Made by a program: the position numbers and the translations under genes. From Escherichia coli (GTDB lineage Bacteria; Pseudomonadota; Gammaproteobacteria; Enterobacterales; Enterobacteriaceae), in the NCBI RefSeq assembly GCF_003334335.1, contig NZ_QOWQ01000011.1: DNA of 64,000 bases; one strand, written 5' to 3'. Each line of letters opens with the position of its first letter. Within the stretch, counting starts at the first letter, position 1. This document shows positions 2,542-54,670 of this stretch, in pieces. The notes beneath the pieces are model-generated. The model had not been told where the DNA came from, did no database searches, and worked only from the letters and a program-made list of their open reading frames with translations.

Positions 2542-3285
2542 ATGGCAACTACATGTTCAGTTATATTGATTTTGGAGTCCTTTGATGTTTATTTCGGAAA
2601 AGAGAGTGTGTTTCTGGAGAGAGGTTCATCTGTACTTGTCGACTCTAGCTCTAGAGATTTTTTCCTGACATATCCTGAAAGAGTGATAGTGGCGGATTTT
2701 GGCGCTGAGTTTATTAGTCGCTATTTGAAAGCTAATAACTTAAGGGATATTTCTGATTGTAGGGAATATCCATCTTATTTAAAAATAAACTTTGCTGACT
2801 TCAGTTTAATTAAAGGATTAATTAGTTGGGCTAATCACTGTGCTGAATACATAGAAATTTTTGATGAGTCTATTGCTTTTACATGTCTCTCTGCATTTTC
2901 TTCTGAAAAACAATTTGGAGTATTTCTGTTTGAATGTTTGAAAAGCACAGGGGCTAAAGTTAAAACGATTATTCATACGGATTTATCTGCACCATGGCGT
3001 CTTAAGGATATATCATCAAGATTATATCTCAGCGAAAGTTTACTAAAGAGGAAATTGAAAGAAGAGGGGGTATCATTCAGTAAGATCATACTTGATGAGA
3101 GGATGCAAATGGCTGAATATTTACTCAGCACTCGTTGTTATCCTATTAGTAAAGTAGCTAAGGTCTGTGGTTATGCCAGTGTCTCATACTTTACTTATGT
3201 ATTTAGACGTTATTTTGGTGTTTCTCCAAGTCAATACTCTCAGAGCAGTTCAGAAAGTAAAATTCTTACTCACCAGGGAATCTGA
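2542..3285 (+). CDS. AraC/XylS-family transcriptional regulator, AppY/EnvY/Rns-like, low GC
   Basis: C-terminal helix-turn-helix region (ISKVAKVCGYASVSYFTYVFRRYFGVSPSQY) and overall similarity to prophage-borne AppY. ATG at 2542 preferred over the GTG at 2533 used by the ORF track. Confidence 0.75.
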   Translation: MATTCSVILILESFDVYFGKESVFLERGSSVLVDSSSRDFFLTYPERVIVADFGAEFISRYLKANNLRDISDCREYPSYLKINFADFSLIKGLISWANHCAEYIEIFDESIAFTCLSAFSSEKQFGVFLFECLKSTGAKVKTIIHTDLSAPWRLKDISSRLYLSESLLKRKLKEEGVSFSKIILDERMQMAEYLLSTRCYPISKVAKVCGYASVSYFTYVFRRYFGVSPSQYSQSSSESKILTHQGI

Positions 3286-12540: not shown

Positions 12541-12637
12541 CCTGATGCGCTACGCTTATCAGGCCTACATTTTCTCCGCAATATATTGAATTTGCGCGGT
12601 TTGTAGGCCGGATAAGGCGTTCACGCCGCATCCGGCA
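12541..12637. repeat. Composite REP unit (two opposed REP palindromes around a shared spacer)
   Basis: CCTGATGCGCTACGCTTATCAGGCCTAC ... CAATATATTGAATTTGC ... GTAGGCCGGATAAGGCGTTCACGCCGCATCCGGCA. Confidence 0.85.
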
Positions 12638-13823: not shown

Positions 13824-13883
13824 AAAGTGTGGATGGTAAAAATCTCATTTACACGCTAGTATCGGCATAACCACTAAACACTC

Positions 13884-13998
13884 TAGCCTCTGCACCTGGG
13901 TCAACTGATACGGTGCTTTGGCCGTGACAATGCTCGTAAAGATTGCCACCAGGGCGAAGGAAGAAATGACTTCGCCTCCCGTATCTGGAAAGGTGTAC
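13884..13998 (+). ncRNA. Moco (molybdenum cofactor) riboswitch-like leader of moaA; boundaries approximate
   Basis: A conserved Moco RNA motif is known directly upstream of moaA in E. coli. Placed by position; I did not check the fold. Confidence 0.5.
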
Positions 13999-14988
13999 AT
14001 GGCTTCACAACTGACTGATGCATTTGCGCGTAAGTTTTACTACTTGCGCCTGTCGATTACCGATGTGTGTAACTTTCGTTGCACCTACTGCCTGCCGGAT
14101 GGCTACAAACCGAGCGGCGTCACCAATAAAGGCTTTCTTACCGTCGATGAAATTCGCCGGGTTACGCGCGCCTTCGCCAGTCTGGGCACCGAAAAAGTGC
14201 GCCTGACAGGAGGAGAGCCGTCTTTACGCCGCGACTTTACCGATATCATCGCCGCTGTGCGGGAAAACGACGCTATCCGCCAGATTGCGGTCACAACCAA
14301 TGGTTACCGTCTGGAACGCGATGTGGCGAGCTGGCGCGATGCGGGACTTACTGGCATTAACGTCAGTGTCGACAGTCTGGACGCCCGCCAGTTTCACGCT
14401 ATTACCGGGCAGGATAAATTCAACCAGGTCATGGCAGGGATTGATGCTGCATTTGAGGCCGGTTTTGAGAAGGTCAAAGTCAATACCGTGCTGATGCGTG
14501 ATGTTAATCATCACCAGCTCGACACCTTTCTGAACTGGATCCAGCATCGCCCTATCCAGCTGCGTTTCATCGAACTGATGGAAACGGGCGAGGGCAGCGA
14601 GCTCTTCCGTAAGCATCACATCTCTGGTCAGGTTCTGCGTGACGAGCTACTGCGTCGCGGCTGGATCCACCAATTACGTCAACGCAGCGACGGTCCCGCG
14701 CAAGTCTTTTGCCATCCAGATTACGCCGGAGAGATTGGCCTTATCATGCCGTATGAAAAAGACTTCTGCGCCACTTGCAACCGCCTGCGCGTTTCCTCCA
14801 TTGGTAAACTCCATCTCTGCCTGTTTGGTGAAGGCGGCGTTAACCTGCGCGATCTGCTGGAAGACGATACCCAGCAACAGGCGCTGGAAGCGCGTATTTC
14901 AGCGGCGCTGCGGGAGAAGAAACAGACCCATTTCCTGCATCAAAACAACACCGGTATTACGCAAAACTTATCGTACATTGGCGGCTAA
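13999..14988 (+). CDS. moaA: GTP 3',8-cyclase (radical SAM)
   Basis: Start set at [31 protein letters not shown] (329 aa). Confidence 0.95.
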
Positions 14989-16249: not shown

Positions 16250-16702
16250 ATGGCAGAAACCAAAATTGTTGTTGGTCCGCAGCCGTTCAGCGTAGGAGAA
16301 GAGTACCCGTGGCTGGCGGAGCGTGACGAAGACGGTGCGGTAGTCACCTTTACTGGTAAGGTGCGCAACCATAACCTGGGCGACAGCGTCAACGCATTAA
16401 CCCTCGAACACTATCCGGGGATGACTGAAAAAGCACTGGCAGAAATTGTTGATGAAGCGCGTAACCGCTGGCCGCTGGGGCGCGTCACTGTGATTCACCG
16501 CATCGGGGAATTATGGCCGGGCGATGAAATCGTTTTTGTCGGTGTCACCAGTGCGCATCGCAGCAGTGCGTTTGAAGCCGGGCAGTTTATTATGGATTAT
16601 CTCAAAACCCGCGCACCGTTCTGGAAGCGCGAAGCCACGCCGGAAGGCGACCGCTGGGTTGAAGCTCGGGAGAGCGATCAGCAGGCGGCAAAACGCTGGT
16701 AG
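16250..16702 (+). CDS. moaE: Molybdopterin synthase catalytic subunit
   Basis: 150 aa, recognised sequence. Confidence 0.95.
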   Translation: MAETKIVVGPQPFSVGEEYPWLAERDEDGAVVTFTGKVRNHNLGDSVNALTLEHYPGMTEKALAEIVDEARNRWPLGRVTVIHRIGELWPGDEIVFVGVTSAHRSSAFEAGQFIMDYLKTRAPFWKREATPEGDRWVEARESDQQAAKRW

Positions 16703-16712
16703 TTTTTTGTTA

Positions 16713-16740
16713 GCCGGATAAGGCACCGCTGCGTCCGGCA
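16713..16740. repeat. Single REP element after moaE
   Basis: GCCGGATAAGGCACCGCTGCGTCCGGCA. Confidence 0.7.
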
Positions 16741-16838
16741 ATTTCACCGCTCAGTACATACGTTTACGCTGCGTCGATGCACAGCCTCATCATTTTGCAG
16801 TATCCTTAAGATATTCCTTATATCTTCAGGAGATCGTC

Positions 16839-17543
16839 ATGGACAGATTCCCACGTTCTGATTCAATCGTACAACCCCGGGCTGGCTTGCAAACTTATAT
16901 GGCTCAAGTCTATGGCTGGATGACCGTTGGCTTGTTGCTGACCGCATTTGTTGCCTGGTATGCGGCTAATTCCGCGGCCGTGATGGAGCTGTTGTTCACT
17001 AACCGTGTCTTTTTAATCGGTCTGATCATCGCGCAATTAGCATTGGTTATTGTGTTATCAGCGATGATTCAAAAGCTGAGCGCAGGTGTAACGACGATGC
17101 TCTTTATGCTTTATTCGGCGCTGACGGGTCTTACGCTTTCCAGTATATTCATTGTCTATACCGCTGCTTCTATCGCCAGTACTTTCGTCGTTACTGCCGG
17201 GATGTTCGGCGCAATGAGCCTGTACGGTTACACCACGAAGCGCGATTTAAGTGGCTTTGGCAATATGCTGTTTATGGCGTTAATCGGCATTGTGCTGGCA
17301 TCGCTGGTCAACTTCTGGTTGAAAAGCGAAGCATTGATGTGGGCAGTTACCTACATCGGCGTGATTGTCTTTGTCGGATTGACGGCGTATGACACGCAGA
17401 AACTGAAAAATATGGGTGAGCAGATTGATACCCGCGACACGTCGAACCTGCGCAAATATTCCATTCTTGGCGCGTTAACCTTGTATCTGGACTTCATCAA
17501 CCTGTTCCTGATGTTGTTGCGGATCTTCGGCAACCGCCGTTAA
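16839..17543 (+). CDS. ybhL: BAX inhibitor-1 family inner membrane protein
   Basis: 234 aa, multi-pass hydrophobic, recognised. Confidence 0.9.
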   Translation: MDRFPRSDSIVQPRAGLQTYMAQVYGWMTVGLLLTAFVAWYAANSAAVMELLFTNRVFLIGLIIAQLALVIVLSAMIQKLSAGVTTMLFMLYSALTGLTLSSIFIVYTAASIASTFVVTAGMFGAMSLYGYTTKRDLSGFGNMLFMALIGIVLASLVNFWLKSEALMWAVTYIGVIVFVGLTAYDTQKLKNMGEQIDTRDTSNLRKYSILGALTLYLDFINLFLMLLRIFGNRR

Positions 17544-17747
17544 TTCTTTTTCACCATCACTATCCCGGCCATGTGTCGGGATTTTTTTCTTACTAAAAAC
17601 GACACTTAACAAGTACCAGGTATAAAATATGCCTTATGGACGAGCGGAAGCGTTTTCTGTATCCATAAATGCAAAAGTATTTTGTATGCGTGGTTTTAAA
17701 TTTATTGATGGTGAATATTAATATTTTTTCTAAGGATAACTAAAAGA

Positions 17748-18461
17748 ATGGAATCATACTCGCAAAACAGCAATAAATTAGATTTTCAGCACGAGGCCAG
17801 GATATTAAACGGTATATGGCTCATTACCGCTTTAGGTTTGGTGGCAACCGCAGGACTAGCCTGGGGAGCTAAGTATCTCGAAATTACGGCAACCAAATAT
17901 GATTCACCACCAATGTATGTCGCCATAGGGTTATTATTACTTTGTATGTATGGCTTAAGTAAGGATATCAACAAGATAAATGCCGCCATCGCGGGCGTAA
18001 TATATCTGTTTTTACTCTCTTTGGTGGCGATTGTCGTTGCAAGTTTAGTTCCTGTATATGCCATTATCATCGTGTTCAGCACTGCGGGCGCGATGTTTTT
18101 AATCAGTATGCTGGCCGGTTTATTATTTAATGTTGATCCTGGTTCTCACCGTTTTATCATTATGATGACGTTGACAGGGTTGGCCCTGGTAATCATCGTG
18201 AATGCGGCATTAATGAGTGAACGGCCCATTTGGGTAATAAGTTGCTTAATGATTGTGTTATGGCCAGGCATTATCTCGCATGGACGAAATAAGCTCCTTG
18301 AACTGGCAGGAAAATGCCATAGTGAAGAGTTGTGGAGTCCGGTTCGTTGCGCTTTTACAGGTGCATTAACACTCTATTACTATTTTATCGGCTTCTTTGG
18401 GATACTTGCCGCGATAGCTATAACGCTTGTCTGGCAAAGGCATACGCGTTTTTTTCATTAG
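17748..18461 (+). CDS. ybhM: BAX inhibitor-1-like inner membrane protein
   Basis: 237 aa, hydrophobic, lower GC than neighbours. Confidence 0.85.
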   Translation: MESYSQNSNKLDFQHEARILNGIWLITALGLVATAGLAWGAKYLEITATKYDSPPMYVAIGLLLLCMYGLSKDINKINAAIAGVIYLFLLSLVAIVVASLVPVYAIIIVFSTAGAMFLISMLAGLLFNVDPGSHRFIIMMTLTGLALVIIVNAALMSERPIWVISCLMIVLWPGIISHGRNKLLELAGKCHSEELWSPVRCAFTGALTLYYYFIGFFGILAAIAITLVWQRHTRFFH

Positions 18462-18496
18462 TCGTAAATGCAGATACTAAAGAACTTAACTGAACT

Positions 18497-19453
18497 TCAC
18501 ATCGCCGCTTCATTTTTCGCTCGTAGCTTTTTCGCCTGGCTTTCCAGCAACAGGTAACAGATCAGCGCCAGCAGCAGTGGGATAAAGTAATACAGCACAC
18601 GGTAAGCGAGCAGGGCGGCGATAATTGTGCCTTTGGTGATATGCTCCCCAGCCAGTAGCGCGATAAACACCGCTTCCAGCACACCAATTCCCGCCGGAAT
18701 ATGCACGATGACGCCTGCAATACTACTAACCAGCAACACGCCCAGTACAAAGAAATAGTTAACGCTTTGACCAAGTAACAGCCAGATAATCGCCCCCATT
18801 ACCATCCAGTTAACGCTGGAAATCAGCATCTGGGCGAGGGCGAATTTCCATGAAGGCAGTACCAGCTTTTGCCCTTTAATGGTCATATGGCGGTGCTTCG
18901 CGAAAGCGCAAAACCACAAATAAACCGCGATAATCATCAGTAAGCCAATGCCGAGAATACGCAGCGTAGTTTGATCGACATACCAGTGATCCGGCAACTC
19001 CACCACGCCTGCGGTAAAGATAATCCCCGCCAGTAAAATATAGCCCAGCCAGTTGGTGGTGATACTGAGCGAGAAAATCCGCGTAATAGTGCTACCGGGC
19101 AACCCCAGACGAGAGTACAAACGATAGCGCATACCAATGCCGCCGACCCAGGTACTGAGTGTCAGGTTGAAGGCGTAGCAGATAAACGACACCAGCATCA
19201 CCTGGCGCTTCGCCAGTTTGTGACCGCAGTAAAAGCGGGCGAGCAGGTCATAGCAGCCGTAAATCAGATAACTGACGACCACCAGCCCGACCGCACTGAG
19301 CAGCGCAACGCGATTGTAGTCACGGATGACCTTCCAGACCTCTTCCCAGTCCACCTTTTTGGCGTAGACCACCAGCAACACAATCACCGCGATAAAAAAC
19401 AGCCAGGTGAGGATCTTCTTTGCTAAGCGCCAGCGCGGGTGTGATTTACTCAT
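18497..19453 (-). CDS. ybhN: Inner membrane protein with lysylphosphatidylglycerol synthase-like transmembrane region
   Basis: 318 aa; its start overlaps the clsB stop. Confidence 0.88.
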   Translation of the reverse strand: MSKSHPRWRLAKKILTWLFFIAVIVLLVVYAKKVDWEEVWKVIRDYNRVALLSAVGLVVVSYLIYGCYDLLARFYCGHKLAKRQVMLVSFICYAFNLTLSTWVGGIGMRYRLYSRLGLPGSTITRIFSLSITTNWLGYILLAGIIFTAGVVELPDHWYVDQTTLRILGIGLLMIIAVYLWFCAFAKHRHMTIKGQKLVLPSWKFALAQMLISSVNWMVMGAIIWLLLGQSVNYFFVLGVLLVSSIAGVIVHIPAGIGVLEAVFIALLAGEHITKGTIIAALLAYRVLYYFIPLLLALICYLLLESQAKKLRAKNEAAM

Positions 19454-21584: not shown

Positions 21585-21995
21585 ATGAAGTGGCAACAAC
21601 GTGTTCGTGTCGCAACGGGTCTAAGTTGCTGGCAGATTATGTTGCATTTACTGGTAGTGGCGCTGCTGGTGGTGGGCTGGATGAGTAAGACTCTGGTTCA
21701 CGTCGGCGTGGGATTATGCGCACTGTATTGTGTCACGGTAGTGATGATGCTGGTGTTTCAGCGCCACCCCGAGCAACGCTGGCGTGAGGTGGCAGACGTG
21801 CTGGAAGAGCTGACCACGACCTGGTATTTTGGCGCAGCGCTGATTGTGCTGTGGCTGTTGTCCCGCGTACTGGAAAACAACTTTTTGCTGGCAATTGCAG
21901 GGCTGGCGATCCTTGCTGGCCCGGCGGTAGTGTCTTTGCTGGCGAAAGATAAGAAGTTACATCACCTTACGTCTAAACATCGCGTACGCCGCTGA
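21585..21995 (+). CDS. ybhQ: Inner membrane protein YbhQ
   Basis: 136 aa hydrophobic protein; its 3' end overlaps the ybhR 3' end on the other strand. Confidence 0.8.
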
Positions 21996-29244: not shown

Positions 29245-29341
<97 letters not shown>

Positions 29342-34494: not shown

Positions 34495-34617
34495 CTGGAC
34501 GTAGCGTAAACGCCTGATCCGTCCAACGGTTCGGATTTTGTAGGCCTGATAAGACGCGGTAGCGTCGCATCAGGCATCTGTTGCCGGATGCGGCGTAAAC
34601 GCCTTATCCGTCCTACG
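34495..34617. repeat. REP cluster between ybiC and ybiJ
   Basis: Several REP palindromes (GTAGGCCTGATAAGACGCGGTAGCGTCGCATCAGGC, CCGGATGCGGCGTAAACGCCTTATCCG). Confidence 0.8.
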
Positions 34618-54571: not shown

Positions 54572-54670
54572 CCTGATGCGCTACGCTTATCAGGCCTACG
54601 CAGTACCTGCAATATATTGAATCTGCAGGACTTTGTAGGCCGGATAAGGCGTTAACGCCGCATCAGGCAT
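54572..54670. repeat. Composite REP unit, third copy in the same orientation as 12541-12637
   Basis: Same architecture and spacer (CAATATATTGAATCTGC). Confidence 0.85.

What the first reader, a model, noticed from the sequence alone, without database searches (positions are those of the whole stretch)
16839..18461. Tandem BAX inhibitor-1 family membrane proteins with contrasting composition
ybhL and ybhM are adjacent same-strand genes of the same family, but ybhM and the 204-bp spacer before it are noticeably more AT-rich. This suggests an old duplication followed by divergence, or a separate acquisition of ybhM.
Basis: seen in the sequence. Interest (0 to 1): 0.3.

Follow-up and report, generated by a model that had tools for sequence, protein, structure and literature searches.

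The report
Conserved ybhL beside fast-evolving, AT-rich ybhM
Two neighbouring E. coli membrane-protein genes really are distant relatives with different base composition: ybhL is an old, tightly conserved gene, while ybhM is an often-lost, fast-changing member of a variable gene cluster found only in enteric bacteria.

Summary
ybhL (16839-17543) and ybhM (17748-18461) are same-strand BI-1 family genes separated by 204 bp. Pfam Bax1-I scores are 1e-62 and 1e-19, and a profile-profile comparison gives 99.8% probability.

The composition contrast lies only at third codon positions. GC3 is 61.7% in ybhL, which is host-like, and 44.5% in ybhM (z = -3.1). The spacer is 32.8% GC, the lowest of 28 intergenic regions.

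ybhM is not a simple local duplicate of ybhL.
- In 38 of 47 related species, ybhL directly abuts convergent ybhN.
- ybhM belongs to a hyper-divergent clade (25-45% identity) found only in Enterobacteriaceae.
- That clade forms variable arrays of 0-3 copies at this junction.
- In Salmonella it travels as a three-gene cassette with two Sip4-like membrane proteins.

Within Escherichia, ybhM has dN/dS of about 0.4, against 0.02-0.04 for its neighbours. It is incomplete or absent in about 12% of complete E. coli genomes. It lacks the conserved Asp pair that YbhL keeps. It has its own promoter in a reported H-NS-bound spacer.

Its function is unknown. An immunity-like role is suggestive, and a nearly neutral relic is equally possible. 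The genes are known; the variable array appears undescribed. Interest is modest.

The parts
16839..17543 (+). ybhL: conserved BI-1/TMBIM-type inner-membrane protein of 234 aa. It keeps the Asp pair (D185 in AYDTQ, D218 in LYLDFINLF) that aligns with the pH-sensor aspartates of B. subtilis YetJ.
   Evidence: ORF. Pfam Bax1-I 1.1e-62, model positions 1-207 of 207. Aligned to YetJ chain 4pgr_A, E 1e-8. GC3 0.617, host-like. Present in full in 5425 of 5426 complete E. coli genomes. dN/dS 0.024.
17562..17590 (+). Intrinsic-terminator-like hairpin (ATCCCGGCC-ATGTG-TCGGGAT) with a T-run, just after the ybhL stop codon. The hairpin is conserved in genomes that lack ybhM, where it sits between convergent ybhL and ybhN.
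   Evidence: Terminator scan: 8-pair stem, 5 GC pairs, tail TTTTTTCTTA. The same hairpin is present in L003 and L085.
17544..17747 (.). ybhL-ybhM spacer of 204 bp at 32.8% GC, the lowest of 28 intergenic regions in the window.
   Evidence: No Rfam match at E up to 1.
17585..18492 (+). The 908-bp 'ybhM islet' (39.9% GC). This is the exact segment present in the window and absent from a ybhM-less Escherichia genome (L003). It begins in the T-run of the ybhL terminator and ends 4 bp before the ybhN stop codon.
   Evidence: The blastn alignment of window against L003 breaks at window 17584 / 18493, which correspond to L003 6745 / 6747. GC.
17599..17626 (+). Sigma-70 promoter of ybhM: ACGACA, 16 nt, TATAAA. 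It is reported as a constitutive RpoD promoter, with an H-NS mark on the ybhL-ybhM spacer.
   Evidence: Consensus scan hit at 17599..17628. The same hexamers and the H-NS mark are listed for the ybhL>ybhM spacer in Shimada et al. 2014, PMC3946193.
17748..18461 (+). ybhM: divergent BI-1-family inner-membrane protein of 237 aa with 7 predicted helices. G179 and Y212 replace the Asp pair. Codon usage is AT-rich, with rare codons.
   Evidence: ORF. Pfam Bax1-I 9.8e-20, model positions 3-205 of 207. AF2 model with pLDDT 92.1 and 7 helices. Alignments A1 and A4. GC3 0.445. dN/dS 0.40-0.46.
18497..19453 (-). ybhN (convergent, LPG_synthase_TM family): the right-hand conserved anchor of the variable junction.
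   Evidence: Synteny across 47 species loci.

Best explanation
The two genes are distant homologues with different histories.

ybhL is the ancestral, vertically inherited member of the BI-1/TMBIM family. It is under strong purifying selection and keeps the Asp pair that gates the Ca2+/H+ leak in the solved homologue BsYetJ.

ybhM is the Escherichia representative of a small, hyper-divergent 'YbhM-like' offshoot of YbhL-type proteins. This offshoot exists only in Enterobacteriaceae and occupies a variable islet at the ybhL-ybhN junction, where genes are repeatedly gained and lost.
- 0 copies in most genera.
- 1 copy in this window.
- 2 copies in 14% of complete E. coli genomes.
- 3 copies in some Escherichia lineages and in one unidentified assembly.

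In the window, ybhM is a separate transcription unit. The ybhL terminator comes first, then an AT-rich spacer reported to be H-NS-bound, with ybhM's own sigma-70 promoter. Its low GC is a matter of synonymous codons, as is typical of accessory, weakly expressed, xenogeneically silenced DNA. It has been co-inherited with its neighbours within Escherichia, since its dS equals theirs. Its protein sequence changes roughly 8-20 times faster than theirs (dN), and it is often truncated, IS1-disrupted or deleted.

Shown here: homology, composition, distribution, evolutionary rates, gene decay, and loss of the Asp pair.

Inferred: YbhM no longer works as a YetJ-like pH-gated leak channel. My preferred mechanism, at roughly 25% probability, is that YbhM-like proteins act as protective, immunity-like inner-membrane proteins against membrane-inserting toxins of competing bacteria. 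The E. coli copy would then be an orphan under relaxed selection.
For: Homology.

Composition is confined to GC3 and rare codons.

Ancestral adjacency of ybhL and ybhN: 38 of 47 species loci have a gap of at most 250 bp, and only 3 of 80 loci carry a YbhM-like gene. The 908-bp presence/absence difference against L003 is clean.

Restriction to Enterobacteriaceae. An exhaustive HMMER search of 1.84 billion representatives gave 93 hits at E up to 1e-3. Apart from one YbhL-type protein (P0098, E 4.8e-10), the full-length hits at E below 1e-9 outside Escherichia YbhM are nine roughly 30%-identical clusters. Seven of these are named as Escherichia, Salmonella, Kluyvera, Superficieibacter or Pseudocitrobacter. 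The clade is monophyletic at 89.5% bootstrap.

Arrays at the same junction:
- Salmonella: ybhL, M-like, 202 aa, 186 aa, ybhN.
- E. coli: ybhL, A, ybhM, ybhN. Gene A is present in 750 of 5426 genomes.
- Escherichia: ybhL, A, ybhM, B, DUF3969, 73 aa, ybhN.
- Kluyvera, and L094 with three copies.

AT-rich GC3 of YbhM-like genes relative to flanking genes in Escherichia, Salmonella, Pseudocitrobacter and L094.

Rates: ybhM has dN/dS 0.41 and dS 0.185. ybhL has 0.024 and 0.158. moaE, ybhN, clsB and ybhP have dN/dS 0.025-0.040.

Decay: only 4788 of 5426 genomes have at least 80% of ybhM in one piece, against 5425 for ybhL. There is a 390-bp in-frame deletion allele, IS1 insertion or deletion, and shortened protein clusters.

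Promoter, terminator and H-NS.

Asp pair.

Immunity-like hint. The three-gene cassette (M-like plus two mutually homologous membrane proteins) occurs at two unrelated Salmonella loci. All four partner proteins hit NCBIfam 'immunity protein Sip4' and no other family, at E 3e-5 to 3e-8. Sip4 is the 4-TM immunity protein to the pore-forming T6SS effector Ssp4 (PMC12669606). A T6SS PLD-type effector with Sel1 genes sits in the same junction in Enterobacter sp. BIGb0383 (L031). The M-like gene lies 3.3 kb from a vgrG gene in Superficieibacter.
Against: - The origin of the clade is unresolved. The NJ tree puts it inside YbhL-type BI-1 proteins but not beside enterobacterial YbhL, and long-branch effects are likely.
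- No mobility genes, tRNA or flanking direct repeats mark the islet, and no phage or true plasmid carries ybhM. A transfer vehicle is therefore not shown.
- AT-richness could come partly from mutation bias under weak selection rather than foreign origin. The Phytobacter copy (GC3 0.76) matches its host and the Kluyvera copy (0.64) is near it.
- Against an arms race, substitutions within Escherichia fall in the N-terminal tail and the TM helices. None falls in the five predicted loops. That pattern looks like relaxed constraint.
- No toxin gene is adjacent to any YbhM-like gene examined.
- The Sip4 matches lie far below NCBI's curated cutoff (21-34 bits against 240).
- There are no PADLOC or PHROG hits.
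- The second Asp is also absent from YccA, a functional family member, so its loss does not prove loss of function.
Confidence: 0.7

Rival explanations
1. ybhM is a nearly neutral relic. It would be a dispensable, H-NS-silenced paralogue drifting towards pseudogenisation, with no present function. Its AT-richness and fast protein evolution would simply reflect weak selection.
For: - dN/dS of 0.4-0.46 is 10-20 times that of neighbouring genes.
- About 12% of complete E. coli genomes lack an intact copy, and 26 have no match at all.
- There are in-frame deletion alleles and IS1 disruption.
- Substitutions sit in TM helices and the N-terminal tail, not in loops.
- Rare codons and the H-NS mark point the same way.
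- Only incidental mentions of ybhM appear in the literature.
Against: - dN/dS is clearly below 1.
- The 237-aa frame is kept in E. coli, E. albertii, E. fergusonii and a cryptic Escherichia lineage.
- The YbhM-like clade keeps its own invariant or nearly invariant positions despite about 30% overall identity: A28, W39, G114, M116, F117, G144, N152, W162, S165, W172, C201 and G205.
- The gene is reported as induced 4.6-5.1 fold in O157 on lettuce (PMC6891304).
Confidence: 0.25
2. ybhM is a working BI-1/YccA-type protein with an ordinary physiological role. It could be an ion-leak channel or a modulator of the FtsH protease, like its paralogue YccA. It would be used under specific stress conditions, and its composition would be incidental.
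For: - Full-length Bax1-I match.
- A confident 7-helix model that matches AlphaFold models of BI-1/YccA proteins.
- YccA also lacks the second Asp yet is functional; it is annotated 'modulator of FtsH protease'.
- Stress-associated induction has been reported.
Against: A housekeeping-type role does not fit its restriction to one genus, copy-number variation of 0 to 3, frequent loss, 25-45% identity between members in sister genera, or cassette mobility in Salmonella. Both YetJ-type aspartates are replaced, by G179 and Y212.
Confidence: 0.2
3. ybhM arose by a recent tandem duplication of ybhL in the E. coli lineage and then diverged and became AT-rich in place.
For: The genes are adjacent, on the same strand, in the same family and of similar length.
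Against: - Identity is only 25%, while the dS of ybhM equals that of its neighbours.
- YbhM groups with YbhM-like proteins of other genera, not with YbhL.
- E. fergusonii and E. albertii already carry a YbhM of 87-89% identity.
Confidence: 0.03

Closest known systems
BI-1 / TMBIM family (Pfam PF01027 Bax1-I). The structural reference is Bacillus subtilis YetJ (PDB 4PGR and related entries), described from my own knowledge (Chang et al. 2014, Science) as a pH-sensitive Ca2+ leak channel gated by an Asp171-Asp195 pair.
   Same: Both window proteins match the family profile over their full length. YbhL aligns to YetJ with both aspartates conserved. YbhM is predicted with high confidence to have seven helices.
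   Different: YbhM has G179 and Y212 at the two Asp positions and lacks the 4-residue 'IxVY' segment of YbhL-type proteins. It gives no sequence hit to YetJ even as a subfamily profile. It belongs to a clade restricted to one bacterial family.
E. coli YccA (b0970), a BI-1 family substrate and modulator of the FtsH protease.
   Same: Same family and the same organism. YccA also lacks the second Asp (LYVSLYNIF).
   Different: YccA serves as the outgroup to both YbhL and YbhM-like proteins in the tree, at 14% identity to YbhM. Nothing here tests an interaction with FtsH.
Orphan immunity-gene islands of polymorphic toxin / T6SS systems, including Sip4, the 4-TM immunity protein to the pore-forming effector Ssp4 of Serratia marcescens (PMC12669606).
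   Same: - Variable copy number at a fixed chromosomal junction.
- Extreme divergence between close relatives, and AT-rich composition.
- Polytopic inner-membrane proteins.
- Linkage in Salmonella to two Sip4-like genes in a cassette found at two loci.
- T6SS-related cargo in the same junction or nearby in other genera.
   Different: No cognate toxin is adjacent to any YbhM-like gene seen. No BI-1 family protein was found described as an immunity protein in the one literature search made. The Sip4 similarity of the partner genes is weak. The window itself has neither the partner genes nor any toxin.
H-NS-silenced horizontally acquired islets of E. coli (xenogeneic silencing).
   Same: A low-GC segment of 908 bp at 39.9% GC, rare codons, a reported H-NS mark at the promoter, and presence/absence polymorphism.
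   Different: There is no integrase, tRNA or repeat boundary. dS shows vertical co-inheritance within the genus, so any transfer is old.

Membership tests
BI-1/TMBIM (Pfam PF01027 Bax1-I) | Significant, near full-length match to the family profile | tested here: met
   YbhL 1.1e-62 (model positions 1-207 of 207). YbhM 9.8e-20 (positions 3-205 of 207). hhalign of the YbhM-like profile against the YbhL-like profile gives 99.8%.
BI-1/TMBIM (Pfam PF01027 Bax1-I) | Seven transmembrane helices | tested here: met
   The AF2 model of YbhM has pLDDT 92.1 and pTM 0.88. It has seven helices: 6-43, 54-76, 79-100, 103-127, 134-154, 159-192 and 198-235. This is a prediction only.
BI-1/TMBIM (Pfam PF01027 Bax1-I) | Fold matches the solved BsYetJ structure | tested here: inconclusive
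BI-1/TMBIM (Pfam PF01027 Bax1-I) | Conserved di-aspartyl pH sensor (BsYetJ D171/D195; residue numbers from my own knowledge) | tested here: not met
   For YbhM, G179 and Y212 align to YbhL D185 and D218. For YbhL the feature is met: AYDTQ and LYLDFINLF align to YetJ LYDLNQ and LYLDFINLF.
BI-1/TMBIM (Pfam PF01027 Bax1-I) | pH-dependent Ca2+/H+ leak activity | not testable with these tools
   This needs proteoliposome flux assays.
Horizontally acquired, H-NS-silenced islet | Composition and codon usage atypical for the host | tested here: met
   GC3 0.445, z = -3.1. TTA, ATA and AGG codons are enriched. The islet is 39.9% GC against 51.6% for the window.
Horizontally acquired, H-NS-silenced islet | Absent from the same site in related genomes | tested here: met
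   38 of 47 species loci have ybhL abutting ybhN. L003 lacks exactly 908 bp. 26 E. coli genomes have no match.
Horizontally acquired, H-NS-silenced islet | Mobility signatures (integrase, tRNA, direct repeats) or a mobile carrier | tested here: not met
   None appear in the annotation or at the boundaries. There are no phage hits, and the 'plasmid' hits are records of 0.7-4.9 Mb, apart from one 56-kb record, all typed as non-mobilizable.
Horizontally acquired, H-NS-silenced islet | H-NS binding | not testable with these tools
   This rests on literature only: an H-NS mark on the ybhL>ybhM spacer in PMC3946193.
Toxin-immunity (T6SS / polymorphic toxin) immunity proteins | Encoded next to a cognate toxin | tested here: not met
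   No toxin lies next to ybhM in the window or next to the YbhM-like genes in L083-L094. In Superficieibacter the neighbours are an unassigned 864-aa protein and a vgrG.
Toxin-immunity (T6SS / polymorphic toxin) immunity proteins | Linkage to known immunity families, and polymorphic arrays | tested here: inconclusive
   All four Salmonella partner proteins hit only NCBIfam NF053812 (Sip4), at E 3e-5 to 3e-8, which is below the curated cutoff. Arrays are seen. Neither applies to the window itself.
Toxin-immunity (T6SS / polymorphic toxin) immunity proteins | Specific protection against a toxin | not testable with these tools
   This needs competition assays.

The most novel reading that the evidence does not exclude
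YbhM-like proteins would be a previously unrecognised class of seven-helix inner-membrane immunity or decoy proteins, recruited from a housekeeping BI-1 ion-leak channel. They would protect Enterobacteriaceae against pore-forming or membrane-inserting toxins delivered by competitors. The ybhL-ybhN junction would be a dedicated 'immunity islet' that collects them together with Sip4-like genes. E. coli ybhM would be a widespread orphan member of this class.
Probability: 0.2. Interest if true: 0.7.

Novelty: new variant of a known kind. Interest (0 to 1): 0.38.

Why it matters
ybhL and ybhM are annotated with the same family name in every E. coli genome, which hides how differently they behave. 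One is a core gene under strong constraint. The other is a fast-evolving, frequently lost, silenced accessory gene that belongs to a variable array found only in enteric bacteria.

Recognising this has three uses.
- It prevents function being transferred from YbhL, YccA or YetJ to YbhM.
- It flags the ybhL-ybhN junction as a small hotspot of strain-to-strain variation that could serve for typing. Observed variants are gene A in 14% of genomes, deletion alleles and IS1 insertions.
- It gives a concrete, testable lead: a BI-1-derived membrane protein linked to Sip4-like genes may take part in defence against membrane-targeting toxins.

If that lead fails, the locus is still a clean natural example of how gene duplicates are born and lost, and of how they decay under H-NS silencing.

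Tried and rejected
- **RNA element in the spacer:** Rfam gave no match at E up to 1 over 16500-18700.
- **Anti-phage defence or phage origin:** YbhM, a Salmonella YbhM-like protein and the cassette partners have no PADLOC or PHROG hits. tblastn against 50,697 phage records found nothing.
- **Plasmid carriage:** all 7 'plasmid' hits are Escherichia records typed as non-mobilizable. Six are 0.7-4.9 Mb long, so they are chromosomes or fragments, and one is 56 kb.
- **Amino-acid composition as the cause of the low GC:** rejected, because GC1 and GC2 are identical in the two genes.
- **Direct sequence link of YbhM to a solved structure:** none with the single sequence or with the subfamily profile.
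- **Profile search with the four Sip4-like partners:** the word-indexed search returned only Salmonella proteins, so it gave no bridge to true Sip4.
- **Context look-up of Superficieibacter P0083:** not on record; P0172 was used instead.
- **The 864-aa neighbour of P0172:** no Pfam or NCBIfam assignment.
- **Small ORFs of the L094 and Pseudocitrobacter arrays:** only one sub-threshold hit, to MafI immunity at E 0.0056.
- **Window spacer as a deletion scar of gene A:** not supported. Only the first ~110 nt of the 321-nt query (the ybhL 3' end, stop codon and terminator) and the last ~87 nt (the end of the spacer and the start of ybhM) align to A-carrying loci. The ~125-bp middle of the spacer is unrelated.
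Full report
**What the window is.** The window is E. coli chromosome. It has 5 mismatches over 38.6 kb to strain PEC1009. The local gene order is bioABFCD, uvrB, yvcK, moaABCDE, ybhL, ybhM, then ybhN-clsB-ybhP on the opposite strand.

**Checking the observation.** ybhL is at 16839-17543 (234 aa), ybhM at 17748-18461 (237 aa), and the spacer is 204 bp. Both proteins match Pfam Bax1-I over its full length, at 1.1e-62 and 9.8e-20. Pairwise BLASTP gives 25% identity over 151 residues, E 7e-13. A profile-profile comparison of the two subfamilies gives 99.8% probability over 213 columns. Homology is therefore secure but distant.

**Where the composition difference lies.** The contrast is real and has a clear cause.
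- GC1 (0.45 / 0.44) and GC2 (0.39 / 0.39) are the same in the two genes. Both are low because the proteins are hydrophobic.
- GC3 is 0.617 in ybhL, which has z = +0.58 against 52 other core genes of the window.
- GC3 is 0.445 in ybhM, which has z = -3.1 and lies below every one of those genes.
- ybhM favours TTA, ATA, GGA/GGG and AGG codons, whereas ybhL favours CTG and ATC.
- The spacer, at 32.8% GC, is the most AT-rich of 28 intergenic regions.

**Transcription.** A terminator-like hairpin with a T-run follows ybhL at 17562-17590. A sigma-70-like promoter (ACGACA, 16 nt, TATAAA) lies at 17599-17626. It matches the constitutive RpoD promoter listed for the ybhL>ybhM spacer, with an H-NS mark, in a genomic SELEX study (PMC3946193). 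No Rfam family matches the spacer. The two genes are therefore most likely separate transcription units.

**Distribution of ybhM itself.**
- A word-indexed search of 5.8 billion proteins returned only Escherichia and Shigella sequences.
- An exhaustive HMMER scan of 1.84 billion cluster representatives gave only 93 hits at E up to 1e-3. Beyond the Escherichia cluster, and apart from one YbhL-type protein (P0098), the full-length hits at E below 1e-9 were nine clusters at 25-35% identity.
- Seven of the nine are named as Escherichia, Salmonella, Kluyvera georgiana, Superficieibacter electus or Pseudocitrobacter.
- Ordinary YbhL-type proteins appear only at E of about 1e-5 to 1e-10.
- In an NJ tree with 200 bootstraps these 'YbhM-like' proteins are monophyletic (89.5%). 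They lie within YbhL-type BI-1 proteins, with YccA as outgroup, but they are not sister to the enterobacterial YbhL clade (4%).

**Synteny around ybhL.** A scan of one genome per species with YbhL returned 80 loci. ybhN is present in 47 of them. In 38 of those 47 the ybhL-ybhN gap is at most 250 bp (median 71 bp), so there is no gene between them. Only 3 of the 80 loci carry a YbhM-like gene. One Escherichia genome (L003) lacks ybhM cleanly. Aligning it to the window shows that the extra segment is window 17585-18492. That segment is 908 bp at 39.9% GC, and runs from the terminator T-run to 4 bp before the ybhN stop codon.

**What else occupies the ybhL-ybhN junction.**
- Many Salmonella serovars: ybhL, YbhM-like (235 aa), 202 aa, 186 aa, ybhN.
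- Some E. coli: ybhL, gene A (234 aa, YbhM-like), ybhM, ybhN. Gene A is present in 750 of 5426 complete genomes.
- Some Escherichia: ybhL, A, ybhM, B (232 aa), DUF3969, 73 aa, ybhN. This makes four BI-1 genes in a row.
- Kluyvera georgiana: one copy.
- An unidentified assembly (L094): three copies interleaved with small ORFs.
- Other genera: unrelated cargo in the same gap. Examples are a PLD-type T6SS effector with three Sel1 genes (L031), a catalase and lipocalin (L032), and an EptA-like transferase in E. albertii (L004).

Members of the clade are only 25-45% identical to one another, even within one array. YbhL is 85-93% identical across the same hosts. Most copies have lower GC3 than their flanking genes. 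The Phytobacter copy matches its host and the Kluyvera copy is close to its host.

**Population genetics within Escherichia.**
- Against a divergent Escherichia lineage (L091), ybhM has a dS of 0.185. This is like its neighbours (0.12-0.26), so it has been inherited together with them.
- Its dN is 0.076 against 0.003-0.009 for the neighbours. That gives dN/dS of 0.41, compared with 0.024 for ybhL and 0.025-0.040 for moaE, ybhN, clsB and ybhP.
- Amino-acid changes concentrate in the N-terminal tail (8 of 31) and the TM helices. None falls in the five predicted loops. This looks more like relaxed constraint than selection on exposed surfaces.
- Among 5426 complete E. coli genomes, ybhL is full length in 5425. 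ybhM reaches 80% coverage in one piece in only 4788, and 26 genomes have no match.
- Examples of decay include a 390-bp in-frame deletion allele, IS1 insertions and an IS1-associated deletion.

**The proteins.** YbhL aligns to the solved homologue BsYetJ with both aspartates of the pH sensor conserved, at D185 and D218. In YbhM these positions are G179 and Y212. Across the clade the first position is variable (often E) and the second is mostly S. YccA also lacks the second Asp, so this loss alone does not mean the protein is inactive. The clade keeps its own conserved positions: W39, G114-x-M116-F117, G144, N152, W162, S165, W172, C201 and G205. The AF2 model is confident (pLDDT 92.1) and has seven helices. 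PDB fold searches did not retrieve YetJ. AFDB50 matched YbhM-like and BI-1/YccA models.

**Clues to function.**
- The Salmonella unit of three genes (YbhM-like plus two mutually homologous membrane proteins) is found both at the ybhL junction and in an island downstream of guaA. Order and spacing are the same, at 37-45% identity between the corresponding proteins of the two copies. The genes therefore move and persist together.
- All four partner proteins hit one NCBIfam model and no other: 'immunity protein Sip4'. E-values are 3e-5 to 3e-8 across most of the profile, far below the curated cutoff.
- Sip4 is a 4-TM inner-membrane immunity protein to the pore-forming T6SS effector Ssp4 (PMC12669606).
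- In the guaA island, a Sel1-repeat gene, DUF1266 and, in one strain, TsiV lie nearby.
- In Superficieibacter the YbhM-like gene is followed by an unassigned 864-aa protein and then a vgrG.

These clues are suggestive only. No toxin is adjacent to any YbhM-like gene, and the window has none of these partner genes. PADLOC and PHROGs give nothing, and no phage or true plasmid carries ybhM. The literature held here mentions ybhM only in passing, for example as induced on lettuce in O157.

**Verdict.** The genes are homologous and ybhM is compositionally foreign-looking, but this is not a simple local duplicate. ybhM is lineage-restricted, dispensable cargo of a variable islet inserted between two conserved genes. 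It evolves fast under weak constraint and is reported to be H-NS-bound.

What it does is unknown. I rate an immunity-like protective role at about 0.2-0.25, a near-neutral relic at about 0.25, and an ordinary BI-1/YccA-like physiological role at about 0.2. The genes themselves are known and annotated. The hyper-divergent YbhM-like array and its Sip4-like partners appear undescribed, so overall interest is modest.

Noticed in passing
L083:8001-9908 and L086:8001-9900 (Salmonella enterica): A three-gene cassette occurs at two unrelated chromosomal sites, the ybhL-ybhN junction and downstream of guaA. It consists of a YbhM-like gene (235/238 aa) followed by two mutually homologous membrane-protein genes (~203 and ~185 aa). 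All four partner proteins weakly hit NCBIfam 'immunity protein Sip4' and no other family.
   Followed up: partly
L085:8001-8705; L091:6455-9299 (Escherichia): Some E. coli and other Escherichia genomes carry extra YbhM-like genes flanking ybhM. Gene A is present in 750 of 5426 complete genomes. Gene B, with a DUF3969 gene and a 73-aa ORF, is rare. Together these give up to four BI-1 family genes in tandem.
   Followed up: yes
L094:145-7202 (Logan SRR18370191, organism not named): ybhL is followed by eleven small same-strand genes. They include three YbhM-like genes (234, 223 and 245 aa) and several small soluble ORFs with no family assignment. One has a sub-threshold MafI-immunity hit (E 0.0056).
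   Followed up: partly
L031:6706-11818 (Enterobacter sp. BIGb0383): In this species the ybhL-ybhN junction holds a 611-aa protein with HKD-like motifs, which looks like a PLD-type T6SS effector. It also holds three tandem ~328-aa Sel1-repeat genes that look like immunity genes. These assignments are from reading the sequences only.
   Followed up: no
L004:7063-10247 (E. albertii NBRC 107761): An AT-rich 3.6-kb insert (35.6% GC) lies after ybhL. It contains an EptA/CptA-like phosphoethanolamine transferase (553 aa), an 81-aa C-terminal remnant of ybhM, a B-type YbhM-like gene and a DUF3969 gene.
   Followed up: partly
L098:8001-13275 (Superficieibacter electus): Here the YbhM-like gene is not next to ybhL. 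It lies beside an 864-aa protein with no Pfam or NCBIfam match, followed by a T6SS vgrG at the contig end.
   Followed up: partly
window 17629-17721: A 30-codon ORF (MPYGRAEAFSVSINAKVFCMRGFKFIDGEY) lies inside the ybhL-ybhM spacer, just downstream of the ybhM promoter. The ~125-bp middle of the spacer has no counterpart in loci that carry gene A.
   Followed up: no
window 17544-18461, with E. coli records H6-H10, H22 and L097: IS1 elements are repeatedly inserted in or next to ybhM in different E. coli strains. One strain has an IS1-associated deletion that leaves only 57 bp of the gene.
   Followed up: partly
window 2542-3285 and 456-1037: An AraC-family regulator gene has very low GC (35.1%, GC3 27.4%). 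It lies next to prophage tail-fibre remnants and transposase fragments at the left end of the window. An Rfam IS009 match lies at 799-997.
   Followed up: no
window 13867-14011: A Moco (molybdenum cofactor) riboswitch lies upstream of moaA (Rfam RF01055, 103.6 bits). The Ssp4 paper reports a small benefit of moaC deletion in P. fluorescens under T6SS attack. This is a curious coincidence with the Sip4-like genes found beside the moa-ybhL locus in Salmonella.
   Followed up: no
window 21957-21995: ybhQ (+) and ybhR (-) overlap convergently by 39 bp at their 3' ends.
   Followed up: no
L083:736-3000 (Salmonella): An LRR plus NEL (novel E3 ligase) type III effector gene is inserted between uvrB and yvcK, just upstream of the moa operon. 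It is absent from the E. coli window.
   Followed up: no
window 12561-12602, 29265-29307, 34543-34613, 54592-54634: Rfam finds three ES036 (CssrF) sRNA matches and one naRNA4 (CssrE) sRNA match in intergenic regions of the window.
   Followed up: no
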